A DNA stretch of 64,000 nucleotides from the UHGV virus genome UHGV-0036853, one strand, 5' to 3'. Source of the DNA: a virus. Within the stretch, counting starts at the first letter, position 1; every line of letters starts with the position of its first letter. A program made the translations under genes and the position numbers. The notes under the pieces are model-generated. The model saw only the letters and a list, made by a program, of their open reading frames with translations. It made no database searches and had not been told where the DNA came from. Of the stretch, positions 12,296 to 62,470 are shown piece by piece.

Positions 12296-12330
12296 GAAAA
12301 CAAATTGTTTACTAGTGTGTTTAATGTAGC
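12296..12330 (-). promoter_or_regulatory. conserved AAACAAnTTGTTT-type motif upstream of vWA gene
   Basis: motif family 2. Confidence 0.5.
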
Positions 12331-12376
12331 ACTGCGCGAACAGGGAACTAAGCCATTCGCGCAGGGAGAAGAGGGG

Positions 12377-12589
12377 TTAACAGATTCTGACGGCTAAAGA
12401 CCCGGAGCCGGTATTGAGAAGCGTGAAGCGTTTGTTGTTAAGTTCGAATATAAAGCCAGTTGTGTCATTCACACCAACCTGAATCTGCTCATTCGGTAGA
12501 TCGGTGAGGATGTCAGCTACACACTCATCAGCTAATTTCTGTACGTGTCCGATCTCAAGAGCGATTAGGCTGGAAATAGTGGTTTTCAT
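12377..12589 (-). CDS. hypothetical protein
   Basis: ORF only. Confidence 0.3.
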   Translation of the reverse strand: MKTTISSLIALEIGHVQKLADECVADILTDLPNEQIQVGVNDTTGFIFELNNKRFTLLNTGSGSLAVRIC

Positions 12590-12840
12590 TCAATCAATCC
12601 ATTCTAACTTATACTATGGTAAGGAATACTACTAAAATTTGTATCAATACTGAATACATCCATATCAGATGCAAGTTAATTTTCTTACCTATTTTGGGCT
12701 AGTTTTTCTCCATGCATGGACCTTTACTCGGTCTTACAAGTGCCTGCCGAAAAAAATGATAATAGCTTTACAACCCTAACCTTTGATGTAATATCGGTAA
12801 GCACTTACCAGAGAGAATTAAACGCGCAAAGGTTGTAACA

Positions 12841-13227
12841 ATGTCTGACAACAAGATTGAATTTATAGAAAGTCGCTATGCTGCTTTTATCGCAGGGCTG
12901 ATTGAATCCTCACCTATGAGTCAGGCCCAAATAGCCAGACTTATTGGTTATAAAAATGCCAACAACCTTTCTTTAATTAAAAGTGGCAAAATTCCTTTGC
13001 CTATCGATAAGGTTCGTCCGTTGGCGCTGGCGCTGGGTATTGAGCCAAGTCGTCTTATGATGATGGTGCTGGAAGAACGCCAACCTGAACTCGCAGCATT
13101 TTTATACAAAGAAGGCACCGCTCCTCTTAACGAGGACGAAAAACAGGTTCTTGCTGCATATAACGAGCGATTCGGTAAAGAGAAAGGCGCATCACAAAAG
13201 GTTGTTGAGGCCATAAAGTCTCTATGA
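12841..13227 (+). CDS. HTH (XRE-like) transcriptional regulator
   Basis: helix-turn-helix signature SQAQIARLIGYKNANNLSLIKSG; convergent with integrase. Confidence 0.55.
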   Translation: MSDNKIEFIESRYAAFIAGLIESSPMSQAQIARLIGYKNANNLSLIKSGKIPLPIDKVRPLALALGIEPSRLMMMVLEERQPELAAFLYKEGTAPLNEDEKQVLAAYNERFGKEKGASQKVVEAIKSL

Positions 13228-14325
13228 AAAATTTACACGAATAAGCTCTGTTGATAGACGATCTCCCTTGAATTTGTGGTCAATTTCGTCTAAATCCGGT
13301 TGCTCTACGATTGATGCGATGTACGTCGAGAAACTTTCTAAGGCGTCTCGCATCTCGTCCATATAATCGTGCCGGTCGTAGACCCGATCTATCCCCTCAA
13401 GACTGTGGTTCATGATTTTGCGTGATACCTCCTGGCTTATGCCTAATGCTGGGAAGTAACTACGCGCAGTACGGCGCAAATCTCGGGGTGTAAATGGCTC
13501 AAGCTCCATCAGTTCTGGTCTTTCCAGAATACGACGTAATGCCTGGGCTATTGCCACTTTGGACATAGGAAGGTCTTTCCCGATTTTTTTATTCGAAGGC
13601 ACGAGCCACTGGCTGTCTTTACCGTATTCGAACAACTCTTCAATGCATGTGCGCATTAATGTGCTTAAAGGCAGCGAATGCTCACGTGCTGACTTGTTTC
13701 TCTTGCCTTGATTCCAAACCCCACGCTTAAGATTGAACTCACTTTTTTTAGCCCGCAGTACTTCGTCAGGTCGTCTTGCTGATACAAGACACAGCCTGGC
13801 CGCCCATTTTGTACCAGCGCACACATTGAAGTAGTCCCATATATTCCAGAACACCCATACCTCTGCGTCGGTCAGCTTCCGCTCGCGAGGTGTGGGCTTT
13901 GCGCCACCGGCAACTTTGTTTAGTGACATATCGTTTAACGGTGACACGTCTATCATCCCCTGGAAGGCGCACCAGCTAAGGAACTGCTTCATCAGAGAGA
14001 AAACGCGGCGGCCCATAACAATTTTGCCATCCAGTATTAGTGGGTTGACCAGTTGGTTCACCATGAACCTATTAATGTCACTTACTTTTACATCGGCAAT
14101 GTGCGGCAAAACATGTATCAAAATACAATGAACAGCGATCTCTGGCCGACGTCTGGTTATCAGCAGAGATAAGCGAGTGAATAACATGAATGCGTCCGAG
14201 AATCTCATATCATTGCTAACCTGCGAGATCATAACGGCCTGCATTTGAGATGCTCTTTCGAGATACTCAATCGCCTCTTTTGAGGTGTTCTCCGCAGCGC
14301 GTGCTCTGTCAAAGCTATTTTTCAT
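13222..14325 (-). CDS. tyrosine recombinase / integrase
   Basis: C-terminal catalytic region with RDLRRTARS, NHSLEG and Y in DRHDYMD. Confidence 0.75.
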   Translation of the reverse strand: MKNSFDRARAAENTSKEAIEYLERASQMQAVMISQVSNDMRFSDAFMLFTRLSLLITRRRPEIAVHCILIHVLPHIADVKVSDINRFMVNQLVNPLILDGKIVMGRRVFSLMKQFLSWCAFQGMIDVSPLNDMSLNKVAGGAKPTPRERKLTDAEVWVFWNIWDYFNVCAGTKWAARLCLVSARRPDEVLRAKKSEFNLKRGVWNQGKRNKSAREHSLPLSTLMRTCIEELFEYGKDSQWLVPSNKKIGKDLPMSKVAIAQALRRILERPELMELEPFTPRDLRRTARSYFPALGISQEVSRKIMNHSLEGIDRVYDRHDYMDEMRDALESFSTYIASIVEQPDLDEIDHKFKGDRLSTELIRVNFS

Positions 14326-14413
14326 ATGACAATCACCGAGTTACGCCGATTCACTGTATAAGTAAACAGTATATTAGGCATAGATTCTTATAGGATCAAG
14401 AGTAAAAGTAACT

Positions 14414-14446
14414 CATTTTCACTAATGATTCCATACATAGTAGGTA
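14414..14446. promoter_or_regulatory. perfect 13-bp-arm inverted repeat, candidate operator
   Basis: aatgattccatac atagtag gtatggaatcatt; half-site copies near 17238-17254 and 18251-18267. Confidence 0.5.
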
Positions 14447-14509
14447 TGGAATCATTTAGACGTTGTTTTTTGAATTTTAAGGGAAACAGGAGTGAGTTTG
14501 GTGGGAATA

Positions 14510-14533
14510 AAAAAACGGCTCCTGTGAGCCGTT
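14510..14533 (-). terminator. intrinsic terminator downstream of glutaredoxin gene
   Basis: hairpin cggctcctgtgagccg followed by T-run on minus strand. Confidence 0.55.
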
Positions 14534-14537
14534 AAAA

Positions 14538-14783
14538 TCAGAGGGTGCTGACGTATGCAGCCAGTTCTGTGTATCCGCCAATCGGCTGGCCATCGATCAG
14601 CACCTGGGGGATAGTCTCTACCGGTTTACCAACAATTTCACTTAGTTTTTCCTTGTCGATACCGGCAGTGGTGATGTCGATGTACTCATAATCACCGTAG
14701 CCATGTCCCTTTAGTTGCTTCGCCAGCTCGACTGCACGTTTGCAGTATGAGCAGTTATCTCGTCCGTAGATAGTGATCGTCAT
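14538..14783 (-). CDS. glutaredoxin (GrxA/NrdH-like)
   Basis: CSYC active site; KPVETIPQVLIDGQPIGGY matches the glutaredoxin fold. Confidence 0.8.
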   Translation of the reverse strand: MTITIYGRDNCSYCKRAVELAKQLKGHGYGDYEYIDITTAGIDKEKLSEIVGKPVETIPQVLIDGQPIGGYTELAAYVSTL

Positions 14784-14956
14784 AACCTAACAAATACCTT
14801 TATAAATATTGATTCGAACATATCAGACTATACTACAAACAGATTTTTTTGATAAGTATGTAGTAACTTATTGATTGACTGGTAAACAATTGAAGTGATT
14901 ATGACAATAGATTACAGTAAGGATTGCCTTGAAATGTACATTTTATAGAGGTTTTA

Positions 14957-15865
14957 ATGATTGGTAAGTTGTCTGATTCTTTGATTGAAAATAAATACAA
15001 CGAATTTAGAGAAGAAATATCTTTACTTTTTGACTATTTAAATCAGATAAATGATACAACAAAGAAAAATATAAAACGTCTTCTAAAAGAAGTGGAGTAT
15101 GCACAGAATCCAGATACTATTATTAATATTAATGAAACTATTAAGATTAAGTGTGGCACAACGTTAGCTCGCCATTTATGTTCAAACCCATATACAGGTT
15201 CAACATTAGAGATAGGTAACAGCGCCATTGATTTAGAAGAAAAGATAAGATTGTGTAATGTTTTGAAGAATAAACAATATCAGTGGGTTATTACTGAAGC
15301 CTATGAGTTACTGGAAGACTATATTGAGGCAATATATGTCTATACTGTATGTGTTCGAAATGATTTCTGGTCCTCAAGTAATTTTGGTAAGGTTGAAGAT
15401 GATGACATTGGGAAAGGGGAAGTTTATTACAAATTATTAAAAGCAAAAAGTAACCCATCGAAAAAAATAATTAAAATTTTCAGAAATAAAATACCTGGCT
15501 TCAAAGAGATAGAAATAAACAACAAGATTGGTAAAAACTATCGCTTTAACATCAAGCTAATTGAACTACTAAGACATACAATAGTACACAATAGTGGACG
15601 ATTCAATGATACAGAAAAATTTATAAATAAGGTTTTAGATGAATCTGAAATAAACGGTAAGAAAAGAGTTATTGGAGAAAGAGCTGTTAGAAGTTACATT
15701 GCTAAAGTGCAAGAAGATGATATTGTAATGCTCTTAGAAAGACCATCTGAAATTTTTGGTTCTTTTGGTGGTTATTTTAACAGAGCAAAATTTTTACTAA
15801 GTGATATTTTAGAATACTCACTAATCATTAAAGAAGAACTAAAATCATATCTAGGCAATCATTAA
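14957..15865 (+). CDS. AT-rich accessory protein, possible HEPN-type (Abi-like) protein
   Basis: 302 aa, low GC by eye, Rx4H motif RHTIVH, own terminator; functional call is weak. Confidence 0.4.
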   Translation: MIGKLSDSLIENKYNEFREEISLLFDYLNQINDTTKKNIKRLLKEVEYAQNPDTIININETIKIKCGTTLARHLCSNPYTGSTLEIGNSAIDLEEKIRLCNVLKNKQYQWVITEAYELLEDYIEAIYVYTVCVRNDFWSSSNFGKVEDDDIGKGEVYYKLLKAKSNPSKKIIKIFRNKIPGFKEIEINNKIGKNYRFNIKLIELLRHTIVHNSGRFNDTEKFINKVLDESEINGKKRVIGERAVRSYIAKVQEDDIVMLLERPSEIFGSFGGYFNRAKFLLSDILEYSLIIKEELKSYLGNH

Positions 15866-15869
15866 CAAA

Positions 15870-15896
15870 AAAAGGGGCCGAAGCCCCTTTGAATTT
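15870..15896 (+). terminator. intrinsic terminator
   Basis: ggggccgaagcccc hairpin followed by T-rich tract. Confidence 0.7.
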
Positions 15897-16044
15897 TGCG
15901 CTGAAAAAAGTGTTGCTAGGATGTTAGCAAGCTATGGTTAAGAACGTCTGCCGTAATTGTCTATCACAGCGTTGAGCGGTCTGGTTTATGTTAGCGGAGT
16001 CTTAATCTGGGTGATTAAAAGGCCAAACCGCTCAACGCTGTGTC

Positions 16045-16131
16045 TGGCGGAGAGTAATGGAATCGAACCATCATCGCTTGCGCAATGGGACGGTTTTCAA
16101 GACCGCTTGAGCACCATGCTCCCTACTCTCC
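16045..16131 (-). tRNA. tRNA-Ser (anticodon UGA), long variable arm
   Basis: cloverleaf by hand: acceptor GGAGAGT/ACTCTCC, anticodon loop CTTGAAA, T-loop GGTTCGATTCC, encoded CCA. Confidence 0.7.
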
Positions 16132-16799
16132 GGCCGTTGTGGTGGCCGGTACTGAATCTCCGGCATACGGTGCAGCCAATTAGGACTACGGACGATCACC
16201 GCTCGCGAAAGGGAAGATTTGCGGCCGCATTTCCCTAACATCCAAGAAAGCTATCGCATCAGTCTGCGAATCCACCACAACGGAAAGAGCATTCACGTCT
16301 CGCGTGCCACCACGAATGGCAACTCAGAGAGTCGAACTCTGAAAATGCTCTTACCTGTTGTGTGCTGTGTCACTCCCTCCGCTATTACCTGGCTTTGCCT
16401 CGACCTTTTAGGTTGCGTCCGATGATAAACAGGGCTGTCGGAAATTTGTCTGTGACACAGCGATAAGAGAACTCGATGCATTTAAGCCAAGCCCCATATG
16501 GGAAGTTCTCTTATCTGTTGTGCGCTCCGTTTCGTGGAGCTAACGGCGGGTGAACAGGCCGCACCAGGTTGGACATATTTCAGCGTTATGCTGTTGCAAG
16601 AGAGCCAAATTGTGATGGTCGGTGCTGAACTCCGACACAGGGTTGTAGCAAGCCCCGCAAAGCGCGCACTACTGTAGTTGCGGCACATCAGCCTGTGCAT
16701 TCACCACAATGTTGAGAACACTGGTTGTCACGCTGCAACGCAACATTTATTCATAGATTGGGATATGACCCCGTTACGCCAATGTTCTCAATATTATGT

Positions 16800-16875
16800 T
16801 GGTGCCGGTTAACGGACTTGAACCGCTGACCATTCGCTTACAAAGCGACTGCTCTACCAACTGAGCTAAACCGGC
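16800..16875 (-). tRNA. tRNA-Thr (anticodon UGU)
   Basis: acceptor GCCGGTT/AACCGGC, D-arm TAGCTCAGTTGGTAGAGCA, anticodon loop TTTGTAA, T-loop GGTTCAAGTCC, CCA. Confidence 0.75.
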
Positions 16876-16879
16876 AATT

Positions 16880-16966
16880 TGGTGGGGAGTGATGGAGTCG
16901 AACCACCCGAGTCGCAATGACAGTAGATTTACAGTCTACCCCGCTACCCCTACGGACTAACTCCCC
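16880..16966 (-). tRNA. tRNA-Tyr (anticodon GUA), long variable arm
   Basis: acceptor GGGGAGT/ACTCCCC, anticodon arm GTAGA-CTGTAAA-TCTAC, T-loop GGTTCGACTCC, CCA. Confidence 0.7.
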
Positions 16967-16971
16967 TAAAT

Positions 16972-17046
16972 TGGCGATGGTGGGTGGATTCGAACCACCG
17001 ACCAGTTGGTTAACAGCCAACTGCTCTACCGCTGAGCTACACCATC
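16972..17046 (-). tRNA. tRNA-Asn (anticodon GUU)
   Basis: acceptor GATGGTG/CACCATC, anticodon arm GTTGG-CTGTTAA-CCAAC, T-loop GGTTCGAATCC, CCA. Confidence 0.7.
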
Positions 17047-18115: not shown

Positions 18116-18260
18116 TTTCTAACCTTTGTTTCATGAACTACCCGATACACACGCTTTCCGATGCACAGTGTTTTGGTTTTAAGTTCCTGCTTAATTAAGT
18201 CACGACAGATGCCGAAGCCGATAAGGAAGCCACCCATAAAAGCTAATGAGATGTATGGAA

Positions 18261-18476
18261 TCATTTTAACACTCCTGATTCTACTAATTGCTGTAGCAAT
18301 ACTTTCCCTTTATCAGTTAACTGGTAGTTGGCCGAACACTTCGTTTCAGAAACGTTTGCAACCAACCCTAACCGCTCTAACTTAGCCCGCGTTTTAGGCT
18401 TCCAGTACTCAGGGAACTCTGACCACTTACTGATTTCATGAAGCGTTTCCTTCTCCCGCTTACTTAATACGATCAT
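18261..18476 (-). CDS. hypothetical protein
   Basis: ORF only. Confidence 0.35.
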   Translation of the reverse strand: MIVLSKREKETLHEISKWSEFPEYWKPKTRAKLERLGLVANVSETKCSANYQLTDKGKVLLQQLVESGVLK

Positions 18477-23970: not shown

Positions 23971-24002
23971 TTTAAACAAATTGTTTTCTAGTATTAGTTA
24001 AT
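23971..24002 (-). promoter_or_regulatory. motif family 2 copy upstream of DnaB-like gene
   Basis: ttaaacaaattgttttctagtattagttaatt. Confidence 0.5.
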
Positions 24003-24747
24003 TAGATAGGGGATCAATAAACCGCCGTGCTTCTTCCAGTTCTTCTGGAAAGTGGGCGGAAATAAGGCGCTCTGGAACTATTTCCATTAGCCAGATAGCG
24101 GAGAAAATTGCGCGTATGCGCTTGCTGCGGGGGATGGTGCGTAAACGCTCCAGAATCCACTCAAAATAGCTTTCCTGGATCGGGTTAAACTGCATGTCTC
24201 CCATATGCTTAAAACTAACCAGAGAGTCATCCAGACGGGTTGTTGCGCGTCTGGCTAATTTCTCTTCAAATATCTCAATCAGTTCTGGCTGCCACAAATG
24301 CTGTGGGCGAGGCAGCTTGTCCCACAGACGTCGTGCAGCTGCGGAAAGCACGGTGGAGATAAAGTAGTCGTATGAGCAGCAATAGCGGTCAGCAAACTGG
24401 CGTGCTTTCCATAGCGACGTTTTATTGGCAGTCGACAACTCCTGATAAGGCAGGCGTTTTAACCCGGTGGTGAACGGAGCTGTTTCAAAGTGTTCACGAC
24501 CGTGCGTCAGCATAATATTTGAGTACTGACGTTTGTATGCCTCCGTAAAAAGACAGGTGGCCATCAGAGGATGCATGTCGCGGTAATCAAACCACTTCGT
24601 CTCGAAGAGTTCAGCCTCGTCTTTACAGCGCGACAAGCCAATGTTTTCAGCGACCCACTTGTCCATAACAGCGGTATTCCACTCTGTCATGAAGTCGTAC
24701 TGGTCGTTGTCGATGGTATCGAAAAAGATTTGGCTCATGTGGCTCAC
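23998..24747 (-). CDS. hypothetical protein (replication-module associated)
   Basis: ORF only. Confidence 0.45.
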   Translation of the reverse strand: MSHMSQIFFDTIDNDQYDFMTEWNTAVMDKWVAENIGLSRCKDEAELFETKWFDYRDMHPLMATCLFTEAYKRQYSNIMLTHGREHFETAPFTTGLKRLPYQELSTANKTSLWKARQFADRYCCSYDYFISTVLSAAARRLWDKLPRPQHLWQPELIEIFEEKLARRATTRLDDSLVSFKHMGDMQFNPIQESYFEWILERLRTIPRSKRIRAIFSAIWLMEIVPERLISAHFPEELEEARRFIDPLSN

Positions 24748-24855
24748 CTGGTAGGTAGTTACTTACTTATCACAATGAGCGGATGATAGCGACTGGTGTC
24801 AGTTTTTGGAAGTGAAAACGGAAGGGAGTTGTTCTGGTGGGTGTCTTTTAAAAGA

Positions 24856-24910
24856 CCTGCTTCCGTATATATATTTAATAAGTTACTTATTATTTAAATA
24901 CAGAAACAGG
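24856..24910. repeat. large imperfect palindrome A with flanking conserved tail (agctgccagaccgg)
   Basis: arms cctgcttccgtatatat / atacagaaacagg around the TAAGTTACTTA core. Confidence 0.7.
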
Positions 24911-24940
24911 TTCTGATTGAAGCTGCCAGACCGGAAGTTG

Positions 24941-25300
24941 TCAGCCTTTTTTCATGAGTTCTCGCTTGATTTCATCGGTACGCATCGTTACATCGGCAGC
25001 TGTGATCGCCTCGTTAAGTTTCACGATGTCCTCGATTTCCTGCGGTGTCTTCTCCGCAAGATGGAAAATAGCAGCACGAATCACATCAGAGCGGGTGAAT
25101 TTCTCGAAGCGAGGGATGAACTTCATCATCTCCAGCAGTTCGAAGTATTCGTCTTCCAGTGACATTGTGCGGCTTTTAATTTTCTCTTTGCCACGAGTCG
25201 GGCGTCCCTGTGGTCTGACTGGTTGGCGCAAAGGAGTTGTGTTCTTAGCCGGTGCATCAGGCTCTTTGCGCTTTGCTAGGTCACCCATTTTCATGGACAT
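24941..25300 (-). CDS. small partition-associated DNA-binding protein (ParG-like, putative)
   Basis: small basic protein immediately downstream of and coupled to the ParA gene. Confidence 0.4.
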   Translation of the reverse strand: MSMKMGDLAKRKEPDAPAKNTTPLRQPVRPQGRPTRGKEKIKSRTMSLEDEYFELLEMMKFIPRFEKFTRSDVIRAAIFHLAEKTPQEIEDIVKLNEAITAADVTMRTDEIKRELMKKG

Positions 25301-25968
25301 TATTCTTCTTCCTCCAGACTCAACAGATAATCTACAAATTCTTCAAACTCGGCTTCCGCCTTTTTGTCGCGCTCGCTACCGGTCATTTCAAAGATAGAAC
25401 GACCAGACTCTTCCGCATCATCGTAGACGTTGCGGTTATATAGATTGACAGGCGCAGACTCGATGCCAAACGTCTCAACAATCTCTTTAGCCGCCAGAAT
25501 GCGAGACACTTGTGATGGCAAAGCCGGGCACTGGTTCATGACCGCGCGGACCTTCACTTTATCGTTTACATTGCGAACATTGTCGATAATAGGATCGATG
25601 TCACGTAAAGATTTCAAATCACGACGCTTAGGACGCAGCGGGATAATGATAACGTCGGCCATCAGCATCGCTTGTCGCTGAATTTCGGAGTCAAAGCCAC
25701 CAGCATCTACCACTACAAACTCAGCTCTACCCTGAAGCGATTTTAGGTGCTTAATGATGTCATCCTGAACGTATGCAAAAGGAATCAGCTCAAGATCTTC
25801 GTTCTGTCGACGGTCTTCACACCAGCTTGTTGTAGTGCGCTGAATATCTATATCAGTGATATAAACCTTCTTCTTCTTTTTGACTTTCAGGCAAACGGCA
25901 ATTTGCTGGGCAACAGTAGATTTGCCAGGCCCGCCCTTTGTGCCGCCAACCACAAAGATCTTGGTCAT
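25300..25968 (-). CDS. ParA/ParF-type partition ATPase
   Basis: deviant Walker A GGTKGGPGKST. Confidence 0.8.
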   Translation of the reverse strand: MTKIFVVGGTKGGPGKSTVAQQIAVCLKVKKKKKVYITDIDIQRTTTSWCEDRRQNEDLELIPFAYVQDDIIKHLKSLQGRAEFVVVDAGGFDSEIQRQAMLMADVIIIPLRPKRRDLKSLRDIDPIIDNVRNVNDKVKVRAVMNQCPALPSQVSRILAAKEIVETFGIESAPVNLYNRNVYDDAEESGRSIFEMTGSERDKKAEAEFEEFVDYLLSLEEEE

Positions 25969-25986: not shown

Positions 25987-26035
25987 TATATAATTATCGT
26001 CTGAAACAACTTGTTTTCTTATATGTGATATAGCC
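25987..26035 (-). promoter_or_regulatory. motif family 2 copy upstream of ParA gene
   Basis: gaaacaacttgttttcttatatg. Confidence 0.5.
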
Positions 26036-26105
26036 TAAATGCCTACGGCTGTGGTGTAAAGGTTTAATGATAGGTACATAGATTTGGTAAGGACTTAATA
26101 ACAAA

Positions 26106-47968: not shown

Positions 47969-48007
47969 AGATCCCTCTAAAACACACAGAGCGCGTCCAT
48001 GCGCTCT

Positions 48008-48066
48008 AAAACAACTTGTTTACTGCATCTGCTAACCAACTTGTTTTCTGGGGTGTTTAATTAGGT
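48008..48066 (-). promoter_or_regulatory. two motif family 2 copies upstream of terminase small subunit gene
   Basis: aaaacaacttgtttac and ccaacttgttttctgg. Confidence 0.5.
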
Positions 48067-52982: not shown

Positions 52983-53261
52983 ATGAGCGAAAAGAAAACA
53001 ACTTATTGTCAGGTGGCATTGTCTGATAAGGCCAATGACAAACTTGGAAAGTTTCAAATGAAACTAAAAGAAAAAAACATCAAAATGTCTAAGGCTGAAG
53101 TTATCAATACCATCCTAGAGGCGATGACGATGGCTGAGTTTGATAAAGTTTCCTCTGCCGTTGGAGTCTCTGCTAAGGCTCGTGAGAAAATCATGCGCAT
53201 CTATGAAAACTCTAATATGACAAAGGAAGACCTAGAACAAATTCTAAGCAAACTGCCATAA
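52983..53261 (+). CDS. small hypothetical protein coupled to helicase gene
   Basis: ORF. Confidence 0.4.
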   Translation: MSEKKTTYCQVALSDKANDKLGKFQMKLKEKNIKMSKAEVINTILEAMTMAEFDKVSSAVGVSAKAREKIMRIYENSNMTKEDLEQILSKLP

Positions 53262-54509: not shown

Positions 54510-55034
54510 ATGACGACGAAAGACATCACCTACGGTGTGCCAGCAGAAGTCTGGCCTCGAGATTACACTAACGTTGAAAAACTACTGATGTTCTGGCGCA
54601 GAGAACAAATTCCTGTAAGGGCCACTCTCGAAGATGGTCAGGCGTTTTGCATGTACGTTTATGGCCTCATGCCATCTCGTAACAAAGTTGACCTTTGCCC
54701 AGCCCCTTTTGACAAAGAAAATCGTATAAGGCTCCCAATTGAACGCATTAGTACAATTGAATCAGGTGTGGTTGACAGTATCGCTCACGATTTCAAAGGT
54801 CGACTAACAGTTCACCCTGATTATGTCGATAATCGGCCATCACGCCGCGATTTTTTTGCAATTTGCAACCAAGCCTACAAAGCAAACAAATCTATAAGGG
54901 TGTACATGGCGGATGGCCGTGAAATTGAGGGGGTGTCAGCAGGCGCAGATGCTTGTCAGGTTACACTACGTGTCGAGAACGGTAGAAAAATAGTTGTTTT
55001 GTTCGATTGGGTTGAACGAATTTTGCCTTTTTGA
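54510..55034 (+). CDS. hypothetical protein (AT-rich island)
   Basis: ORF; start moved to ATG after upstream stop. Confidence 0.45.
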   Translation: MTTKDITYGVPAEVWPRDYTNVEKLLMFWRREQIPVRATLEDGQAFCMYVYGLMPSRNKVDLCPAPFDKENRIRLPIERISTIESGVVDSIAHDFKGRLTVHPDYVDNRPSRRDFFAICNQAYKANKSIRVYMADGREIEGVSAGADACQVTLRVENGRKIVVLFDWVERILPF

Positions 55035-56280: not shown

Positions 56281-56292
56281 TTAATGGAATCA

Positions 56293-56784: not shown

Positions 56785-56788
56785 AATC

Positions 56789-56815
56789 GAGCGCCCACTA
56801 TGGGCGCTTTTTTCG
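56789..56815 (+). terminator. intrinsic terminator, copy 2 of identical hairpin
   Basis: agcgcccactatgggcgct followed by TTTTTT. Confidence 0.65.
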
Positions 56816-57400: not shown

Positions 57401-57883
57401 TTACACGCCATCAAGGATGTGGATGCGGTTGCTTGTGTATACATTCAACATAAAGTTAGCGCAAAACAGTTTCCATGTATCAACGCCAGCGGTATACGTA
57501 ATGTTTTTGCATTTAATTGCATTGTTGGCGATCCGCATCCCCTGCGATACTGCTTCATCGTCGGAAAATTTGAACGACGATTGAGTTTTAATCCAGACAG
57601 AAATCTGCGTAGCGAACTCAATCAGCTTGGACTGGCAGAATCGCCCGGAGCGCACCGGAAAGACGAACGTTCCGAATCCAGAATTTACCACATACGCTTT
57701 CTCAAATACCCGCGAGTAACGACGATTGCCAATGATGTCGCGTGCAATAATGCATTTTTCTTGTGCTGACAGTTCTACCGTCTCATTGTCGCGCCATGCA
57801 CCAAGTACTCGTTTTTCAATGTCAGAGAACGTTACAGCGATATTGCCATGTGCGGGTGCGTTTACAGTAGCGATAAAATTCAT
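57401..57883 (-). CDS. hypothetical protein
   Basis: ORF with conserved upstream motif. Confidence 0.5.
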   Translation of the reverse strand: MNFIATVNAPAHGNIAVTFSDIEKRVLGAWRDNETVELSAQEKCIIARDIIGNRRYSRVFEKAYVVNSGFGTFVFPVRSGRFCQSKLIEFATQISVWIKTQSSFKFSDDEAVSQGMRIANNAIKCKNITYTAGVDTWKLFCANFMLNVYTSNRIHILDGV

Positions 57884-57900
57884 GATTAATTCCTTATAGT

Positions 57901-57950
57901 AAATAACAAATTGTTTTCTTGTTGGTGTTAATTATCGTTGTACGAATAAG
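57901..57950 (-). promoter_or_regulatory. motif family 2 copy
   Basis: aaataacaaattgttttcttgttggtgttaattatcg. Confidence 0.5.
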
Positions 57951-58087
57951 GCGTCAAAGTGGAAAGTTGCGGTAGCCGGACGGGAACAGGTGGGTTTGTC
58001 GGTTGCCTGGAGGTAAGAGGTTGGTGTTTTTAGCCTGCGGGAAACAGGATGGTCATTTAAGGCCACCAGCATTGGTGACCTTATTCT

Positions 58088-58369: not shown

Positions 58370-58388
58370 GAGCATATCCTCACTGCGT

Positions 58389-58440
58389 AAACATGTTGTT
58401 TTCTTGTTGGTGTAATTATCGCAGTGTAGATAAGGCATAA
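58389..58440 (-). promoter_or_regulatory. motif family 2 copy
   Basis: aaacatgttgttttcttgttggtgtaattatcg. Confidence 0.5.
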
Positions 58441-58704
58441 AAGAAGTTAATACAGGCTGAATACACAAGAAAGGTTCTCGAAGTTGATAGCCAGGTTTCA
58501 AACTAACCTTCGGTTATTAAAAGTCATTTAAGACCACCAATGCTGGTGGCCTTAATAATTATCGCCCGATTACGCTAAGGATCTTTTCCTCAACTGATTT
58601 GTTGTTGCGACTAAACTGCCTTGCGTATCTAATGACAGAAGAGGCGTTTCGCTTTCTGACCATTTCGGCTCTTTCCTTCAGGCGTTTCTTGAAATCGCCC
58701 ATAT

Positions 58705-59079
58705 TTACCACCAGGCGCAGAACGTCAGTCTGTTATTGTGAAAGTCGTGGTTCCTGATCAGGTCTTCCACAAGTTTTTTCAGCTTGTCCACGTCATGCCA
58801 GTAACCTTCATCGTACTCCTGACTGCCGAAGAAAAAACCTTCCCGGGTAGGCAAGTACTCTTCGCAATTACTTTCGTTTATGTGCATCAAATGAGCCTTC
58901 AGAAAACAAATGTCATTCATCGTTAATTCTAAAAGCTCACAATTTTCGACTTCACCTACGTTGCGCTCCATCCACCCAACGAGCGCATTGAACTTACGGA
59001 AGTAAGCAACCCGCTTTCTGGATGCCTCATTATTCAGATCGTTTTTTGGCTGCGTCTCAATGTAAATATCAAGCCCCAT
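58705..59079 (-). CDS. hypothetical protein
   Basis: start at ATG 59079 behind AAGGAA. Confidence 0.45.
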   Translation of the reverse strand: MGLDIYIETQPKNDLNNEASRKRVAYFRKFNALVGWMERNVGEVENCELLELTMNDICFLKAHLMHINESNCEEYLPTREGFFFGSQEYDEGYWHDVDKLKKLVEDLIRNHDFHNNRLTFCAWW

Positions 59080-59125
59080 GATGGTTTCCTTATTAAGTTG
59101 CTTCAGTGAAATCATTTTCACAAAT

Positions 59126-59160
59126 CAGATAAGGCAGAAAACAAATTGTTATCGGGTATA
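59126..59160. promoter_or_regulatory. motif family 2 copy, apparent opposite orientation
   Basis: agataaggcagaaaacaaattgttatcgg. Confidence 0.4.
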
Positions 59161-59164
59161 AGAA

Positions 59165-59187
59165 AATGGCGCGGTTTACGCGCCATT
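59165..59187 (-). terminator. intrinsic terminator
   Basis: ggcgcg..cgcgcc hairpin downstream of 59197 gene. Confidence 0.5.
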
Positions 59188-59196
59188 TAAAGAGGA

Positions 59197-59592
59197 TTAA
59201 GCGAATACGCTTTCAGGGATTAAGGTGTCAGCAGGAATGCCGGAGGTAATACGCAGACCGTACTGACCAATCCAGGTGGTGCTGGTGTTCAGGCTGGAGG
59301 TGAATACGGAATTAACCATATTCATCATGGTTTCAAACACCTCTTCATCAACCTGGCGGAAGTAGTTCTCGATTTTCAGCAGCAGCGGGTCAGTTGCATC
59401 GAGAATGGACTGGTATTGAGTCGCGTACTCGCCGCCGGAGGCATCACCTTTACGCACGATCGTACTGGCCTGTACTTCGGCACCAGTTTCGGTGTTGTAC
59501 GTAACAACGGTGATTTTTGCCACATTCTTACCTTCGGCGGTTTCAGAGGCATAGTAAACATCAACTGTCAGTTTTTCGCGTTTAACGGTCAT
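59197..59592 (-). CDS. hypothetical protein
   Basis: ORF. Confidence 0.45.
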   Translation of the reverse strand: MTVKREKLTVDVYYASETAEGKNVAKITVVTYNTETGAEVQASTIVRKGDASGGEYATQYQSILDATDPLLLKIENYFRQVDEEVFETMMNMVNSVFTSSLNTSTTWIGQYGLRITSGIPADTLIPESVFA

Positions 59593-59656
59593 TTCACTCT
59601 CCGTAGTGTCTTGGTTATTTTTCTATTTTATAGTCGTAGGTATGTACTTACAATAC

Positions 59657-59684
59657 AAAAAAGCCCCGTAATGATGGCGGGGCT
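59657..59684 (-). terminator. intrinsic terminator
   Basis: agccccgccatcattacggggct followed by TTTTTT on minus strand. Confidence 0.65.
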
Positions 59685-59718
59685 GTCGTACTGTCGACTA
59701 ATTACCACTTGCACATTA

Positions 59719-60030
59719 TCAGGCTATTGCCATCACTGATGCTCTCTGAATTTCTTGCTGGGCCACGCGGTTAACTTCCATCAAAGCCAGTTCGAGCTGA
59801 TGTTCCGGCCACATTCTTTGAAATGCCACCCAGCCTTTTCCACGCTGGCGACGAACATTCATTACATAACGAGTAAAGGTGTTTTTATCGAAAGACACCG
59901 CTGTTTCACGGAACAGACGAATAGAGGTTCCATTGGCAACGATGTCCAGCAAAGTTAATTGAGCAACCAGCGCAGGCTTCTCTTTTCTCTTCTGGTCTTT
60001 GTCCAGACCAAGAACCAATGATTTTTTCAT
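59719..60030 (-). CDS. small basic hypothetical protein
   Basis: start at ATG 60030 behind GGAG. Confidence 0.45.
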   Translation of the reverse strand: MKKSLVLGLDKDQKRKEKPALVAQLTLLDIVANGTSIRLFRETAVSFDKNTFTRYVMNVRRQRGKGWVAFQRMWPEHQLELALMEVNRVAQQEIQRASVMAIA

Positions 60031-60040
60031 CACAACTCCG

Positions 60041-60080
60041 TAAACAACTTGTTTTCTCAATGGCGTAAATAATACCAGTG
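60041..60080 (-). promoter_or_regulatory. motif family 2 copy
   Basis: taaacaacttgttttctcaatggcgtaaataata. Confidence 0.5.
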
Positions 60081-60184
60081 AGAAAACGGCTACAAAGCAT
60101 ATTGATCAGGTACATGAGCGATATGCAGGTTCTTCCCTGCGGCTACAGATGAAGTTAAGCCAGCATTGCTGGCTTTGGTTGGGT

Positions 60185-60514
60185 TTACTCGAATACTTCA
60201 AGAAACTCCTGAACATCCCAATGCTGGACAAGGTGAAGATAGACCTTAGAAATCACGTCATTCTCGCTATCGCATGTGAAGTAGTACTTCTGGCTGCGGT
60301 TGTATGTGTCCACACAAAATTCGCTCATATCCATAAAGTCAGCATCTTCACCCATGTCGCAAATCATCAAAGCAGGTGCATCATCACGAGTCATCAGCTC
60401 AAGCACCCACCGCGAATTGATCAGAGTGGAAGACCAACCTTCTAACTCATAAAACTGATCAAACTCTTTTTGAGTCAATTTCTTGATTTGGTTGATGTCG
60501 ATATGTGCAAACAT
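60185..60514 (-). CDS. small acidic protein
   Basis: start at ATG 60514 behind AAGGA; D/E-rich. Confidence 0.45.
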   Translation of the reverse strand: MFAHIDINQIKKLTQKEFDQFYELEGWSSTLINSRWVLELMTRDDAPALMICDMGEDADFMDMSEFCVDTYNRSQKYYFTCDSENDVISKVYLHLVQHWDVQEFLEVFE

Positions 60515-60526
60515 AAAGCAATCCTT

Positions 60527-60580
60527 AAACAACATGTTTTCTTATTGGTGTTATTATCGCAATAACACACAGGCGAAAAA
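60527..60580 (-). promoter_or_regulatory. motif family 2 copy
   Basis: aaacaacatgttttcttattggtgttattatcg. Confidence 0.5.
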
Positions 60581-60699
60581 GGATTTTATTCCGGTGAATG
60601 TGGTTTTGGCAGTGAGTTTTCAGGTTCAGTACCGAGTACAATTTTTACATTATTCTGATTTAGTGGCCGAAGATGGCTGGTGGGCAGAATAATCCTCTC

Positions 60700-62000
60700 C
60701 CCGAAAACCTACTGAAATCGATTGTGACCCGCTGGCTGTCTGGCACAATTACGCTGTAGCTGGGCATTCAGAGGGAATCCAGCGGTAAGTAAGTCCGCCT
60801 GCACGTGAGCGTCTCTCTCCTTCCCGCACATTACAGGTGGGCAGCCGCAACTCTCCCTCACGCTATACCGGTACGCCACCGTTCCTGAACCGGCATCGAA
60901 CCTTTTCCCGAAATCCACACAGGCAACTCGACCGTTTCCCTGAAAACCTCCAGCCGTTCCCCGAAGGCAACCCAGCCGTTTCTGTAGCGGGATGCAGCCT
61001 TTTCCCTGTATGGACCGAAGGCTGACCGTAGGGGTGTTACGGGGGATAAAATCAGGAGTTGAATAAATACGAAAAAGGAGGCGACACCCCTCCTTCCCTC
61101 CCCACTTATACATACCTGGCTTCTTCGCTATACATGTTGTGTTTTATTCGTGTTTTATCTGTCTCAACCTCTCTATAGGCGTTAATGCTCACTCCTTCCA
61201 GAGCGTTCTATACGGCGACTATTCCTGTTGGTGAATTGGGTGTGTTGTTCTCTCTGTCGGTGTAAATGGTTTCGTTCGTTTTGCGGTGGTTCTTCTGTGG
61301 GGGTGTTCTCGTCGTTTTGGTGATTGTTCTTCTCCGTGTATGGAGTAATGGCAGGTGGGCGATTCCTTTCGTTATTGTGTTTGAGTTGTTTGTCTGGAGT
61401 GCGTGAAGGGCTTTTGTAGTTATTCGTGTATTGGGTAATGGCGTTTCCCGTGATTGTTATGTTTCGTGTCTTTTGGGATTGAGAGAATCCTTGCGGTTAC
61501 AGGCTTCGTTGGGTTTTCAGTGATTCTGGTGTTCTTCGCTGTTTGGGGAATGGCGTGTCGTGGGTATCGCGCGTGTGAATGTTTTCGGATTGCCTGTGAA
61601 AGTTAGGTTGGTTGTCCGGTAGCCTGGGAAGAAGAGGTGGGTCTTTTCGGTGGCCTGCCATAAAGAGGTTGGTTGTTTTTGGGAATGGCATGTGTGTTAT
61701 TTAGTTGTTTTGTTATGCCTGAAAATAAGTTGTTTATATGGTTGTGTAACGCAACGGGAGCGATTTTGAGCGTGTGTTTTTGTTGGTAGTGTGTTGAGTT
61801 GTCTGTGGTGAAAATTGGACGCTGTGGAGCTGTCTGCTGCGTAGGATTACGGGTATAAGAAGTGATGTGTGAAAACGTCAATTTTTTAGACCAAATCGGG
61901 TGAAAGCGTTGACGTTTCGTTGATCTGTTATTCAGTTGTTTTCTTGTTTGTATAAACAACTATAACCTATTGATATTTAAGGATGTGATTGCAGGCATGG
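60700..62000. other. ~1.3-kb gene-poor, strongly G+T-skewed (plus strand) region with spaced short repeats
   Basis: TTCCCnGAAA-like repeats at 60.70-61.0 kb; four spaced GGGnAATGGC-like repeats at about 61336, 61427, 61540 and 61681. Confidence 0.5.
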
Positions 62001-62087
62001 AAGGGGAGTAGTGGCGATCAACGGATTCTTATAGAAAAGAATCAAATTGTGACCGCCATTATCAACGGTTTGAATATGTTTTCAGAT

Positions 62088-62396
62088 TTACCAGTTCCAG
62101 CACTCTAGCCCTTCAACGACTGGTGCACCACAATCAAAATGTACAGAGTCAAAGCCTACATCAAGTACCTTCTGAATGTTAGCAATCGCGCCTTCGGATA
62201 TACCATATCGACGCAAGTTGTCTTTCCAGACATCATCCTGTAACCCGGCGTGGACAATACAACCGCCGTCAATTTGCGAAACCCAATCCAGCTCATTGCT
62301 TGCGATCATGAACCGGCGAGCATCTTCCTCTGATGTATGAGATGAACTGATCAATGCCACCTGGTAGGCTTGGGTAATGTTCAACATTTCAACCAC
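62088..62396 (-). CDS. hypothetical protein (last gene before chromosome junction)
   Basis: ORF with two upstream motif copies. Confidence 0.45.
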   Translation of the reverse strand: MVEMLNITQAYQVALISSSHTSEEDARRFMIASNELDWVSQIDGGCIVHAGLQDDVWKDNLRRYGISEGAIANIQKVLDVGFDSVHFDCGAPVVEGLECWNW

Positions 62397-62400
62397 TCCG

Positions 62401-62470
62401 AAACAATTTGTTTTCTTATATGGCTTATTATCTCAATTAACAAAAGTCAGAAAACAAATTGTTTTAGGCA
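62401..62470 (-). promoter_or_regulatory. two motif family 2 copies
   Basis: aaacaatttgttttcttatatggcttattatc and agaaaacaaattgtttta. Confidence 0.5.

What the first reader, a model, noticed from the sequence alone, without database searches (positions are those of the whole stretch)
12296..62470. Motif family 2: conserved ~30-bp element with palindromic core AAAACAAnTTGTTTT upstream of many genes
At least 12 copies, nearly all 10-60 bp upstream of minus-strand start codons: the vWA gene, the DnaB-like helicase, ParA, the terminase small subunit (two copies), and each of the small genes at 57.4-62.4 kb. The better-conserved copies extend to a TAATTAACACCAAnAAG-like flank. The symmetric core suggests a dimeric DNA-binding regulator; the directional flank suggests an element-specific promoter.
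Basis: seen in the sequence. Interest (0 to 1): 0.6.

Follow-up and report, generated by a model that had tools for sequence, protein, structure and literature searches.

The report
Dispersed repressor operator of phage-plasmid promoters
A 13-bp palindrome (AAACAAnTTGTTT) sits on top of about a dozen ordinary bacterial-type promoters in this SSU5-like phage-plasmid and most likely is the docking site of one element-encoded repressor that keeps replication, packaging and many small early genes switched off while the phage lives as a plasmid.

Summary
AAAACAAnTTGTTTT (≤2 mismatches) occurs 15 times against 0.78 expected. A matrix trained only on copies outside the window finds 12 sites against 0.13 expected.

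The window is an SSU5-like phage-plasmid, about 98% identical to E. coli phage Cyrano. The whole replicon has about 18 sites, 15 of them intergenic (P=3e-11).

The motif is not a special promoter. It lies in two fixed registers on sigma-70 extended -10 promoters (TGnGATAAT): centred near +14 or near -38, sometimes both, 51 bp apart.

In relatives with only 69% helicase identity the palindrome is invariant while flanks drift. Orthologous genes switch register, and sites are gained and lost. Copies at -38 lie between a terminator and the -10, so recognition is on DNA.

In published Cyrano lysogen RNA-seq, 12 of 15 motif-preceded first genes sit near background. The parA operon is the clear exception.

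Best reading: an occluding operator regulon of an element-encoded repressor. The leading but unproven candidate binder is the ribbon-helix-helix-like partner of ParA (24941-25300).

I found no description of this motif in the papers I could search.

The parts
12297..12311 (-). Operator copy (TAAACAATTTGTTTT), register A, 18 nt before the vWA/CobT-like start codon. Extended -10 TGCTACATT at 12323-12331.
   Evidence: orthologous perfect copy in Y. pestis pMT1
23973..23987 (-). Operator copy upstream of the DnaB-like helicase (18 nt to ATG). -35 TTGATC at 24012-24017, 16-nt spacer, -10 AATACT at 23990-23995, which ends 2 nt before the 15-mer. The site therefore overlaps the predicted transcription start.
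   Evidence: the palindrome and TTGA(T/G)C are invariant down to 69% helicase identity, although the upstream gene's reading frame and stop codon differ between clades
26003..26017 (-). Operator copy in the parA promoter: TTTACA (26055-26060), N17, TAGGCT (26032-26037), N14, core; 34 nt to ATG.
   Evidence: the whole block is conserved down to 67-75% ParA identity. This operon is the clearest motif-bearing one above background in lysogens.
48008..48022 (.). Proximal operator copy before the small terminase subunit (39 nt to ATG).
   Evidence: the same pair, 25 bp apart, occurs in Cyrano and pMT1
48033..48047 (-). Distal operator copy before the small terminase subunit, 25 bp (centre to centre) from the proximal one.
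57903..57917 (-). Operator copy, register A, 19 nt before gene 57401-57883. -10 GATAAT at 57931-57936; TTGACG at 57952-57957.
   Evidence: the orthologue in the divergent Klebsiella genome carries the site in register B instead
58388..58402 (-). Operator copy, register A. Extended -10 TGCGATAAT at 58415-58423.
59138..59152 (+). Operator copy in reverse orientation, register B (centre about -38). It overlaps the -35 region of the promoter with extended -10 TGTGAAAAT at 59114-59122, and lies 11 nt after a strong terminator hairpin.
60041..60055 (-). Operator copy, register A, 10 nt before the ATG of gene 59719-60030. Extended -10 TGGTATTAT at 60069-60077.
60526..60540 (-). Operator copy, register A, 11 nt before the ATG of gene 60185-60514. 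Extended -10 TGCGATAAT at 60553-60561.
62400..62414 (-). Operator copy, register A, 12 nt before the ATG of gene 62088-62387. Extended -10 TGAGATAAT at 62427-62435.
62451..62465 (+). The only perfect palindrome in the window. Register B on the same promoter as 62400; the two centres are 51 bp apart and flank the -10.
   Evidence: the same double arrangement and spacings occur in the divergent Klebsiella genome
61722..61736 (-). Degenerate copy (TAAACAACTTATTTT). Status uncertain.
   Evidence: score about 11, within the range of shuffles
24941..25300 (-). Leading candidate binder: a 119-aa protein directly after ParA. It has a basic disordered N-tail (conserved MGDLAKR) followed by IKSRTMSLEDEY...FTRSDVIRAAI, which looks like a ribbon-helix-helix.
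   Evidence: sub-threshold RHH_1 and aCcr1 hits; expression 89 in lysogens; elimination table. Binding to the motif is inferred, not shown.
25300..25968 (-). Small Walker-type ParA (222 aa), first gene of the motif-bearing operon that stays on in lysogens.

Best explanation
The element is the operator of a dispersed repressor regulon of an SSU5-like phage-plasmid.

The site. Each copy is a 13-bp palindrome, AAACAA-n-TTGTTT. The promoter-proximal arm is usually extended to AGAAAACAA.

Where it sits (inferred from sequence). It lies on an ordinary sigma-70 promoter, typically of the extended -10 type TGnGATAAT. There are two registers:
- Centred about +14, in the DNA that RNA polymerase must occupy and clear.
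- Centred about -38, over the -35 region.
Some promoters carry both, 51 bp apart (about five helical turns).

How it works (inferred). A sequence-specific dimer, or dimer of dimers, encoded by the element binds these sites in the plasmid (lysogenic) state. It blocks polymerase binding or escape. That silences the packaging/late operon (TerS), replication genes (helicase, CobT-like/PolIII, NrdB in Cyrano) and an array of small genes that each have their own promoter.

The parA operon carries the same site and runs at a moderate, presumably self-limited level.

Who binds (inferred, about 0.3-0.35 absolute probability). The ribbon-helix-helix-like centromere-binding partner of ParA, at 24941-25300.

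Shown versus inferred. Shown: enrichment, placement relative to promoter-like boxes, conservation and turnover of sites, and silence of the target genes in lysogens. Inferred: transcription starts, repression itself, and the identity of the binder.
For: 1. Enrichment and placement. 15 hits against 0.78 expected. 12 against 0.13 with an independently trained matrix. 15 of 18 sites intergenic, P=3e-11.

2. Two exact registers relative to TGn[T/G]AnnWT. The gap from the -10 to the core is +12 to +14, or -38. This holds for 7 of 13 sites in the window, 8 of 18 in Cyrano and 8 of 20 in the divergent Klebsiella genome. Random placement gives 0.15-0.23 on average and never more than 3 in 2000 trials.

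3. Phylogenetic footprints. The palindrome plus -35 and -10 boxes are conserved at the helicase and parA promoters while the intervening sequence diverges. The helicase TTGATC box is kept although it falls in different reading frames.

4. Regulon behaviour.
- The Klebsiella clade with 69% helicase identity has 20 sites.
- Orthologues of Cyrano genes 106 and 111 carry the site at +14 in E. coli and at -38 in Klebsiella.
- Sites are gained or lost at NrdB, TciA and gene 59.

5. DNA level. Register-B copies lie between a terminator hairpin and the -10. The site occurs in both orientations. The leaders show no RNA structure (z about 0).

6. Targets are off in lysogens. In Cyrano RNA-seq (PMC9928086, S1 table) the median is 9.8.
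- Motif-preceded first genes read 5.7-12.9.
- The exceptions are ParA 50 (with the next genes at 89 and 55), helicase 21 and gene 111 at 26.

7. Binder candidate by elimination. Among proteins expressed in lysogens and conserved in every motif-bearing genome, six remain: ParA, its RHH-like partner, the CI-like HTH, RepA, integrase and UvsW. The CI-like HTH has its own palindrome family.

8. The RHH-like core is invariant across homologues that are only 47% identical overall, as the motif is. Half-site centres 7-8 bp apart suit RHH proteins better than HTH dimers (my own knowledge).
Against: General gaps:
- No transcription start, footprint or binding data exist. The -10 and -35 assignments are predictions.
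- The simple consensus scan did not call these promoters, because they lack a canonical -35.
- The TerS sites and some other sites have no clear -10 nearby.

Against the RHH as binder:
- Moellerella's relative keeps the RHH (45% identity) but has no regulon.
- Y. pestis pMT1 lost ParA and the RHH yet keeps six good sites. This is explicable by a recent IS100-bounded deletion, but it gives no support.
- There is no array of four or more contiguous repeats, which a functional RHH centromere needs in pSM19035 (PMC9499535).
- In Acinetobacter relatives the parA-proximal repeats differ from their dispersed palindrome.
Confidence: 0.7

Rival explanations
1. The operator reading is right but the binder is different. 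It could be another element-encoded DNA-binding protein: a small unannotated protein, the 71-aa winged-helix-like protein at 18261-18476, the Cra-like 70-aa protein outside the window, or an autoregulated product of one of the small array genes. It could also be a host factor found in Enterobacteriaceae and Yersiniaceae.
For: - The RHH fold and its binding are unproven.
- Moellerella has the RHH but no regulon. pMT1 has the regulon but no RHH.
- The 18261-18476 protein and the Cra-like protein are present in the motif-bearing Klebsiella genome and absent from motif-less Moellerella.
- A host factor missing from Morganellaceae would also explain the Moellerella result.
Against: - The 18261-18476 protein (6.4) and the Cra-like protein (13) are near background in lysogens, where the targets are silent. 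The 18261-18476 protein is also missing from pMT1.
- With only one motif-less genome, 18 proteins share the same presence/absence pattern.
- From my own knowledge, no E. coli regulator has an AAACAAnTTGTTT consensus.
- Regulons of about 20 phage promoters are normally run by phage proteins.
Confidence: 0.3
2. The element acts in RNA. As part of the 5' leader (AAGAAAACAAnUUGUUUA, 10-40 nt before the start codon), it would be bound by the element's FljA-family protein at 54510-55034. That family is known to block translation of fliC mRNA.
For: - Most copies lie in predicted leaders just before the ribosome-binding site.
- The window encodes a full-length FljA-family protein (PF03614, E=1e-83).
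- That protein is built of two Sm/Hfq-like repeats.
- It is present in 831 related plasmids, including pMT1, and absent from motif-less Moellerella.
- FljA-type proteins prevent fliC mRNA translation (PMC2652032).
Against: - Register-B copies lie between a terminator and the -10, so they are not in the regulated transcript.
- The site occurs in both orientations and has exact dyad symmetry with a free centre.
- The leaders show no RNA structure.
- The E. coli fliC leader has no similar sequence.
- The protein diverges fast (78% identity between window and Cyrano, against 97-100% for most backbone proteins) while the motif is invariant.
- Its absence from Moellerella may simply reflect a host I recall as non-motile (my own knowledge).
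Confidence: 0.08
3. The element is part of a dedicated promoter, or the site of an activator needed for lytic-cycle transcription. This is the first reader's 'element-specific promoter', comparable to T7-type promoters or P1 Lpa-dependent late promoters.
For: - About 30 bp are conserved among the copies of the small-gene array.
- The targets are silent in lysogens. That would also fit a missing activator.
- The register at -38 is near the position used by class II activators (my own knowledge).
Against: - The flank is not conserved at orthologous sites.
- The site occurs at +14 or overlapping the start, at -38, or at both, in both orientations, and orthologues switch between registers.
- The distance to the start codon (10-12 nt at three sites) leaves no room for a start downstream of the core.
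- Good extended -10 boxes should not need an activator.
- No RNA polymerase or sigma gene is annotated in Cyrano. I did not search for one exhaustively.
- The mix of early, replication and late genes does not fit one temporal class.
Confidence: 0.07

Closest known systems
Phage-plasmid P1: C1 repressor and its operators dispersed over the genome
   Same: One repressor holds many separate lytic promoters of a plasmid-prophage silent through operators scattered around the replicon, overlapping or near the promoters (PMC8198154).
   Different: - P1 operators are asymmetric 17-mers read by a large monomeric repressor (my own knowledge). Here the site is a 13-bp perfect palindrome.
- P1 late genes depend on a separate activator, Lpa. 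Here the TerS late operon carries the same site as replication and early genes.
- No C1 homologue is annotated in Cyrano.
Omega (RHH ParB) of pSM19035 and other type Ib centromere-binding proteins such as ParG of TP228
   Same: - A small RHH protein with a flexible N-tail is encoded directly after a small Walker ParA.
- It binds short 7-bp units in direct or inverted orientation and represses its own and other promoters (PMC9499535; the rest from my own knowledge).
- The candidate binder here has the same gene position and layout, and the motif is in the parA promoter.
   Different: - Omega needs four or more contiguous heptads for a working centromere, and two inverted heptads are poor cofactors. 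Here each site has only two inverted half-sites with a 1-bp gap, and no array was found.
- About 18-20 sites control phage lytic genes, against three plasmid promoters for omega.
- The RHH fold is not confirmed.
KorB operators (OB) of IncP-1 plasmid RK2
   Same: A 13-bp palindrome repeated about a dozen times around the replicon, at varying positions relative to promoters. It is bound by the partition protein, which doubles as a global repressor (my own knowledge).
   Different: KorB is a large HTH ParB that spreads and acts at a distance with co-repressors. Here the sites are strictly promoter-proximal in two registers, and the candidate binder is a small RHH-like protein.
Flanking dual operators of lac/gal-type repression
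   Same: Two identical operators bracket one promoter on the same helical face (51 bp apart), at 62451/62400 and in the Klebsiella orthologue.
   Different: This is only an architectural analogy. No looping has been shown, and most promoters here have a single site.

Membership tests
Sigma-70 extended -10 promoter | TGn immediately upstream of a -10 hexamer with A2 and T6. A -35 box is dispensable. | tested here: met
   TGn[T/G]AnnWT lies at a fixed distance from 7 of 13 sites in the window, 8 of 18 in Cyrano and 8 of 20 in Klebsiella. Random placement gives <=0.23. The parA and helicase promoters instead have -35/-10 pairs with 17- and 16-nt spacers.
Sigma-70 extended -10 promoter | Transcription starts 6-8 nt downstream of the hexamer. 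| not testable with these tools
   I found no start-site data for this element or for Cyrano.
Repressor operator regulon (occlusion type) | A recurrent specific sequence, enriched over chance and confined to promoter regions. | tested here: met
Repressor operator regulon (occlusion type) | The site overlaps the region occupied by RNA polymerase (-45 to +20). Its position is flexible between promoters. | tested here: met
   Predicted centres are about +14, -38, or on the start. Orthologues switch register. This rests on predicted promoters.
Repressor operator regulon (occlusion type) | Target genes are silent in the state where the repressor is made. | tested here: met
   Cyrano lysogen RNA-seq: 12 of 15 motif-preceded first genes read 5.7-12.9 against a median of 9.8.
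Repressor operator regulon (occlusion type) | Demonstrated binding of a defined protein, and derepression on its loss. | not testable with these tools
   Needs EMSA or footprinting, and genetics.
Type Ib partition centromere-binding protein (ParG/omega type) as the binder | The gene lies directly downstream of a small Walker-type ParA. The protein is small and has a flexible basic N-terminus. | tested here: met
   (residues 1-23 mostly have pLDDT <50; MGDLAKR is invariant)
Type Ib partition centromere-binding protein (ParG/omega type) as the binder | Ribbon-helix-helix fold. | tested here: inconclusive
   - NCBIfam aCcr1 (an RHH family by my knowledge): E about 2e-4 in 11 of 11 homologues.
- Pfam RHH_1: 17.1 bits against a cut-off of 20.5 in a remote member.
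- The AlphaFold monomer shows the two helices but no strand.
Type Ib partition centromere-binding protein (ParG/omega type) as the binder | A binding site in its own parA promoter (autoregulation). | tested here: met
   The motif is conserved in the parA promoter in all clades. The operon is moderately on in lysogens.
Type Ib partition centromere-binding protein (ParG/omega type) as the binder | A centromere made of a cluster of contiguous repeats. | tested here: not met
   There is no array near par. The DNA downstream of the gene is hypervariable. Each site has two half-sites only.
Type Ib partition centromere-binding protein (ParG/omega type) as the binder | Protein and motif occur together across relatives. 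| tested here: inconclusive
   - Both present in E. coli, Klebsiella, Salmonella-type and other clades.
- Moellerella has the protein but no regulon.
- pMT1 has the regulon but no protein.
Dedicated phage promoter (single-subunit RNA polymerase or phage sigma type) | One orientation and one fixed distance to the transcription start. The extended sequence is conserved at orthologous sites. | tested here: not met
P1 Lpa-type late promoter | A -10 box plus an inverted repeat centred near -22 (my own knowledge). Restricted to late genes. | tested here: not met
   Centres are at about +14 and -38. The targets include replication, partition and early-type genes.
FljA-type leader-RNA operator | The site lies in the transcribed leader in the sense orientation and resembles the fliC leader target. 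| tested here: not met
   Register-B sites are untranscribed. The site occurs in both orientations. The fliC leader has no similar sequence.

The most novel reading that the evidence does not exclude
The partition system's small ribbon-helix-helix-like centromere-binding protein (24941-25300) may double as the master silencer of the lytic programme of SSU5-like phage-plasmids. It would bind about 20 dispersed palindromes, which would then serve both as operators and as a distributed centromere. Plasmid segregation or copy number and the lysis-lysogeny state would be read through one protein. It would act alongside a second regulon: the CI-like repressor with its GTAAGnnCTTAC sites.
Probability: 0.3. 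Interest if true: 0.75.

Novelty: new member of a known kind. Interest (0 to 1): 0.5.

Why it matters
SSU5-like phage-plasmids include pHCM2 of S. Typhi, many E. coli, Klebsiella and Enterobacter plasmids that carry resistance genes, and the ancestor of Y. pestis pMT1. They are abundant. I found no description of how they control the choice between plasmid life and lytic growth.

This regulon maps a large share of their lytic promoters at base-pair resolution. It predicts those promoters' architecture. It shows that two separate palindrome families divide the intergenic regions between them. It also gives a short list of binders that one EMSA and one reporter experiment could test.

If the partition protein is the binder, that would be an unusual coupling of segregation and lysogeny. 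If it is not, the finding is a well-defined but conventional operator regulon.

Tried and rejected
1. RNA hairpin or structured leader. Five predicted leaders fold no better than shuffles, and the palindrome never pairs with itself.

2. Protein at 52983-53261 (Cyrano gene 117) as an autoregulated binder.
- The apparent site at 52995 is just codons 3-9 and drifts at synonymous positions.
- The gene is absent from the motif-bearing Klebsiella genome.

3. Cyrano 'LexA-like' gene 98. It is a UmuD-like peptidase without a DNA-binding domain, judged from its sequence. It is also absent from the motif-bearing Klebsiella genome.

4. CI-like HTH at 12841-13227. Its control region has no copy of this motif. 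It has a perfect GGTAAGnnCTTACC, which belongs to a second dispersed family.

5. Cyrano genes 43 and 102, which are highly expressed in lysogens. They are absent from the window's element, which nevertheless has the regulon.

6. Toxin-antitoxin antitoxins, the MinD-like gene, and genes 81 and 109. All are absent from the motif-bearing Klebsiella genome.

7. FljA-family protein. It has a tandem Sm-like RNA-binding architecture, and the fliC leader lacks the motif.

9. A centromere-like repeat array near par. None was found.

10. A replacement motif in Moellerella that would co-vary with its RHH. None is convincing. It has a different recurrent 13-mer, CCTAGCTCCCATA, not near parA.

11. The exact-pattern scan of viral contigs only re-found SSU5-like contigs, plus singletons that are likely chance.

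12. The simple sigma-70 scan missed these promoters because they lack a canonical -35.

13. A 2026 bioRxiv preprint on an SSU5/pHCM2-type phage-plasmid that mentions promoters could not be opened.

Full report
**What the window is.** Megablast places it in the SSU5 group of phage-plasmids. [quoted passage not shown] It is about 80% identical to Klebsiella and Salmonella SSU5-type elements, and hundreds of enterobacterial plasmids match it. I fetched the annotated Cyrano record whole. The window's minus strand corresponds to Cyrano's plus strand.

- AAAACAANTTGTTTT with up to 2 mismatches occurs 15 times against 0.78 expected (maximum 3 in shuffles).
- To avoid circularity I trained a 20-nt matrix only on five Cyrano sites that lie outside the window. 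It finds 12 window sites at score >=16 against 0.13 in dinucleotide shuffles.
- In Cyrano, 15 of 18 sites (13-mer, up to 1 mismatch) are fully intergenic although 86.8% of the replicon is coding (P=3e-11). Two of the other three overlap start codons that are probably annotated too far upstream.
- AAGAAAACAA is the most recurrent 10-mer of the whole replicon.
- The hits at 52995 and 54986 lie in plus-strand coding sequence and are probably chance. The first drifts at synonymous positions in relatives.

**Anatomy.** Aligned in the direction of the downstream genes, the conserved block reads aaTtA.ac.aa.aAG-AAAACAA-n-TTGTTTa.
- Only the 13-bp palindrome and the preceding AG are general.
- The AT-rich box upstream is a -10 hexamer. 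In most copies of the small-gene array it reads TGnGATAAT, an extended -10 promoter.
- Tested formally, sites occupy two exact registers relative to TGn[T/G]AnnWT. In register A the 13-mer starts 12-14 nt after the hexamer (centre about +14 if transcription starts 7 nt after the hexamer). In register B it starts 38 nt before the hexamer's end (centre about -38).
- This holds for 7 of 13 sites in the window, 8 of 18 in Cyrano and 8 of 20 in a divergent Klebsiella genome. Random placement gives 0.15-0.23 on average and never more than 3 in 2000 trials.
- In register B the site is reversed, so the AG-extended arm is always the one nearer the core promoter.
- The promoter of gene 62088-62387 has both registers, at 62451 and 62400, 51 bp apart.
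- parA has TTTACA-N17-TAGGCT-N14-site. The helicase has TTGATC-N16-AATACT-AG-site, so there the site overlaps the predicted start.
- TerS has two sites 25 bp apart.

**Comparative evidence.**
- Upstream of the helicase, in clades with 93%, 80% and 69% protein identity, the palindrome is invariant and the centre base varies.
- At that site the 'TAATTAAC' flank is replaced by other sequence.
- The TTGA(T/G)C box 25 nt upstream is kept even though it falls in different reading frames, or in the stop codon, of the upstream gene. It is therefore a DNA-level signal.
- The parA promoter block is conserved down to 67-75% ParA identity.
- A complete Klebsiella plasmid of the most divergent clade (NZ_CP101792) has 20 sites of the same sequence.
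- Orthologous genes carry the site in different registers in the two clades. Orthologues of Cyrano genes 106 and 111 have +14 in E. coli and -38 in Klebsiella. Gene 101 has both in E. coli and only -38 in Klebsiella.
- Sites are gained or lost at NrdB, TciA and gene 59.
- This is how transcription-factor operators evolve. It is not how a promoter element with a fixed geometry evolves.

**DNA or RNA?**
- Register-B copies lie between a strong terminator-like hairpin of the upstream gene and the -10. They are therefore not part of the regulated transcript.
- Predicted leaders fold no better than shuffles, and the palindrome never pairs with itself.
- Together with the exact dyad symmetry and the use of both orientations, this places recognition on double-stranded DNA.

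**Repressor or activator?**
- A site at +14, on the start, at -38, or on both sides of one promoter is what an occluding repressor tolerates and an activator does not.
- The distance from the core to the start codon is 10-12 nt at three promoters. That leaves no room for a start downstream of the core.
- Published lysogen RNA-seq for Cyrano (PMC9928086, S1 table) gives a median of 9.8. TerS reads 7.1, CobT 7.8, gene 58 5.7, NrdB 12.9, TciA 7.0, gene 87 7.1, Eae 6.3, and genes 101, 105, 106, 108 and 110 read 5.7-12.8.
- The exceptions are ParA at 50 (with the next genes at 89 and 55), helicase at 21 and gene 111 at 26.
- Promoters with good extended -10 boxes that are silent in the plasmid state, with this palindrome as their only shared extra element, point to repression at the palindrome.

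**Who binds? This is inference.**
- The CI-like HTH (12841-13227) has no copy of the motif in its own control region. It has a perfect GGTAAGnnCTTACC. That sequence belongs to a second dispersed family: 7 copies in the window, 12 in Cyrano, 13 in Klebsiella and 9 in pMT1. Acinetobacter relatives also carry it. It occupies a mostly complementary set of intergenic regions.
- The gene after ParA (24941-25300) is annotated 'RelE/ParE' in Cyrano. It has the layout of a type Ib centromere-binding protein: a basic disordered tail, then IKSRTMSLEDEY...FTRSDVIRAAI.
- All 11 homologues give sub-threshold hits to the RHH family aCcr1. Remote members nearly reach Pfam RHH_1 (17.1 against 20.5 bits).
- The operon that encodes this protein is the clearest motif-bearing operon that is on in lysogens. 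That is the pattern expected of autoregulation.
- By elimination, six proteins are expressed in lysogens and conserved in every motif-bearing genome: ParA, this protein, the CI-like HTH, RepA, integrase and UvsW.

**Tests that could have confirmed the RHH link did not.**
- Moellerella's SSU5-like plasmid shares 68 of 123 Cyrano proteins, including this one at 45% identity. It has no regulon: 3 hits against 18 in Cyrano.
- Y. pestis pMT1 lost ParA and this protein in an IS100-bounded deletion. It still keeps six good sites at orthologous promoters. To my knowledge pMT1 is a recent derivative, so this neither supports nor excludes the link.
- No contiguous repeat array is present. RHH centromeres such as that of pSM19035 need one (PMC9499535).
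- I therefore give the operator model 0.7 and the RHH identity about 0.3-0.35.

**The RNA-level rival deserved a second look.**
- The FljA-family protein at 54510-55034 is not a sporadic accessory gene. It occurs in 831 plasmids, including pMT1.
- Its alignment shows two Sm/Hfq-like repeats. FljA proteins act on the fliC leader (PMC2652032).
- However, the E. coli fliC leader has nothing like the motif, and the register-B sites are untranscribed.
- The protein also evolves much faster than the invariant motif.
- It more likely targets host flagellin.

**Comparison with known systems.**
- Functionally this is closest to the dispersed C1 operators of phage-plasmid P1 (PMC8198154).
- If the ParA partner is the binder, it is closest to omega of pSM19035 and to KorB of RK2, where a partition protein is also a global repressor.
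- It fails the tests for a dedicated phage promoter, for a P1 Lpa-type late promoter, and for an FljA-type RNA operator.
- Five of the seven literature searches I ran targeted this group or its regulation, and none found a description of this motif or of lysogeny control there. One recent preprint could not be opened.

**Verdict.** The motif is real and strongly non-random. It is a dispersed operator placed on sigma-70 promoters in two registers. It most likely serves a repressor that silences lytic functions in the plasmid state. The binder is unresolved. The ParA-linked RHH-like protein is the best but unproven candidate.

Noticed in passing
window 12797-12808 (perfect), 26087, 33765, 44561, 51360, 59640; also Cyrano, NZ_CP101792, pMT1 and L250: A second dispersed palindrome family, about ATAgGTAAGTgCTTACcTAT. 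There are 7 copies in the window (up to 1 mismatch in GTAAGNNCTTAC), 12 in Cyrano, 13 in Klebsiella and 9 in pMT1. Acinetobacter relatives carry 7 in 24 kb. In Cyrano most copies are intergenic and at other gene junctions than the AAACAAnTTGTTT family. The perfect copy lies in the control region of the CI-like HTH repressor, so it is probably that repressor's operator.
   Followed up: partly
window 54510-55034 (+): A full-length FljA-family protein ('repressor of phase-1 flagellin', PF03614, E=1e-83) built of two Sm/Hfq-like repeats. It is conserved in 831 related plasmids, including Y. pestis pMT1. It diverges fast (78% identity between window and Cyrano). It may silence host flagellin from the phage-plasmid.
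   Followed up: partly
window 47988-48007 (-), plus the following GTGTGTTTT: A GC-rich hairpin followed by a T-rich run lies in the TerS leader, between the two operator copies and the start codon. It looks like a leader terminator. It is conserved in pMT1 but not clearly in the divergent Klebsiella clade.
   Followed up: no
window 14352-14371 (+): CACTGTATAAGTAAACAGTA, one mismatch from a LexA-box consensus, lies 27 nt upstream of the integrase start. As a count it is not significant (1 hit against 1.9 expected). It is of interest because Cyrano is induced by ciprofloxacin.
   Followed up: no
window 24748-24940, and the equivalent position in loci L124-L243: The DNA immediately downstream of the ParA-partner gene is a hotspot. 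47 different sequences were seen among relatives, usually starting with a terminator hairpin followed by unrelated cargo genes.
   Followed up: partly
window 14957-15865 (+), low-GC block 14.0-16.0 kb: A 302-aa ORF with no family hit lies in a 36% GC stretch near the integrase. At the neighbouring position Cyrano carries a different gene, CYRAN_43, which is by far the most highly expressed gene in lysogens (about 700 times background). This looks like a swappable cargo slot.
   Followed up: no
window 16045-17046 (-) and 62548-63981 (-): A tRNA cluster (Ser, Thr, Tyr, Asn), and a methionyl-tRNA synthetase gene that runs off the end of the window.
   Followed up: no
Cyrano OV696614: CYRAN_29, CYRAN_105, CYRAN_110: Likely annotation errors in the public record. 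CYRAN_29 is called 'RelE/ParE toxin' but looks like the ParA partner. The start of CYRAN_110 is annotated upstream of the operator, so the operator falls inside the ORF. The annotated start of CYRAN_105 falls inside the operator. For both, ATG codons with good ribosome-binding sites follow the operator.
   Followed up: partly
L251/L252 (Y. pestis pMT1, NZ_CP009841): 30616, 66065, 66090, 74979, 75471, 87634: pMT1 keeps six copies of the motif and nine of the second family, although an IS100-bounded deletion removed lysis, parA-RHH and helicase-primase-ligase genes. Existing Y. pestis transcriptomes could be used as a natural knockout test.
   Followed up: partly
L244-L246 (Moellerella plasmid NZ_CP093251): This SSU5-like plasmid lacks both palindrome families. 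It has its own recurrent 13-mer, CCTAGCTCCCATA (7 copies, some in inverted pairs), and carries umuDC, a fimbrial operon and a ClpP-like gene.
   Followed up: no
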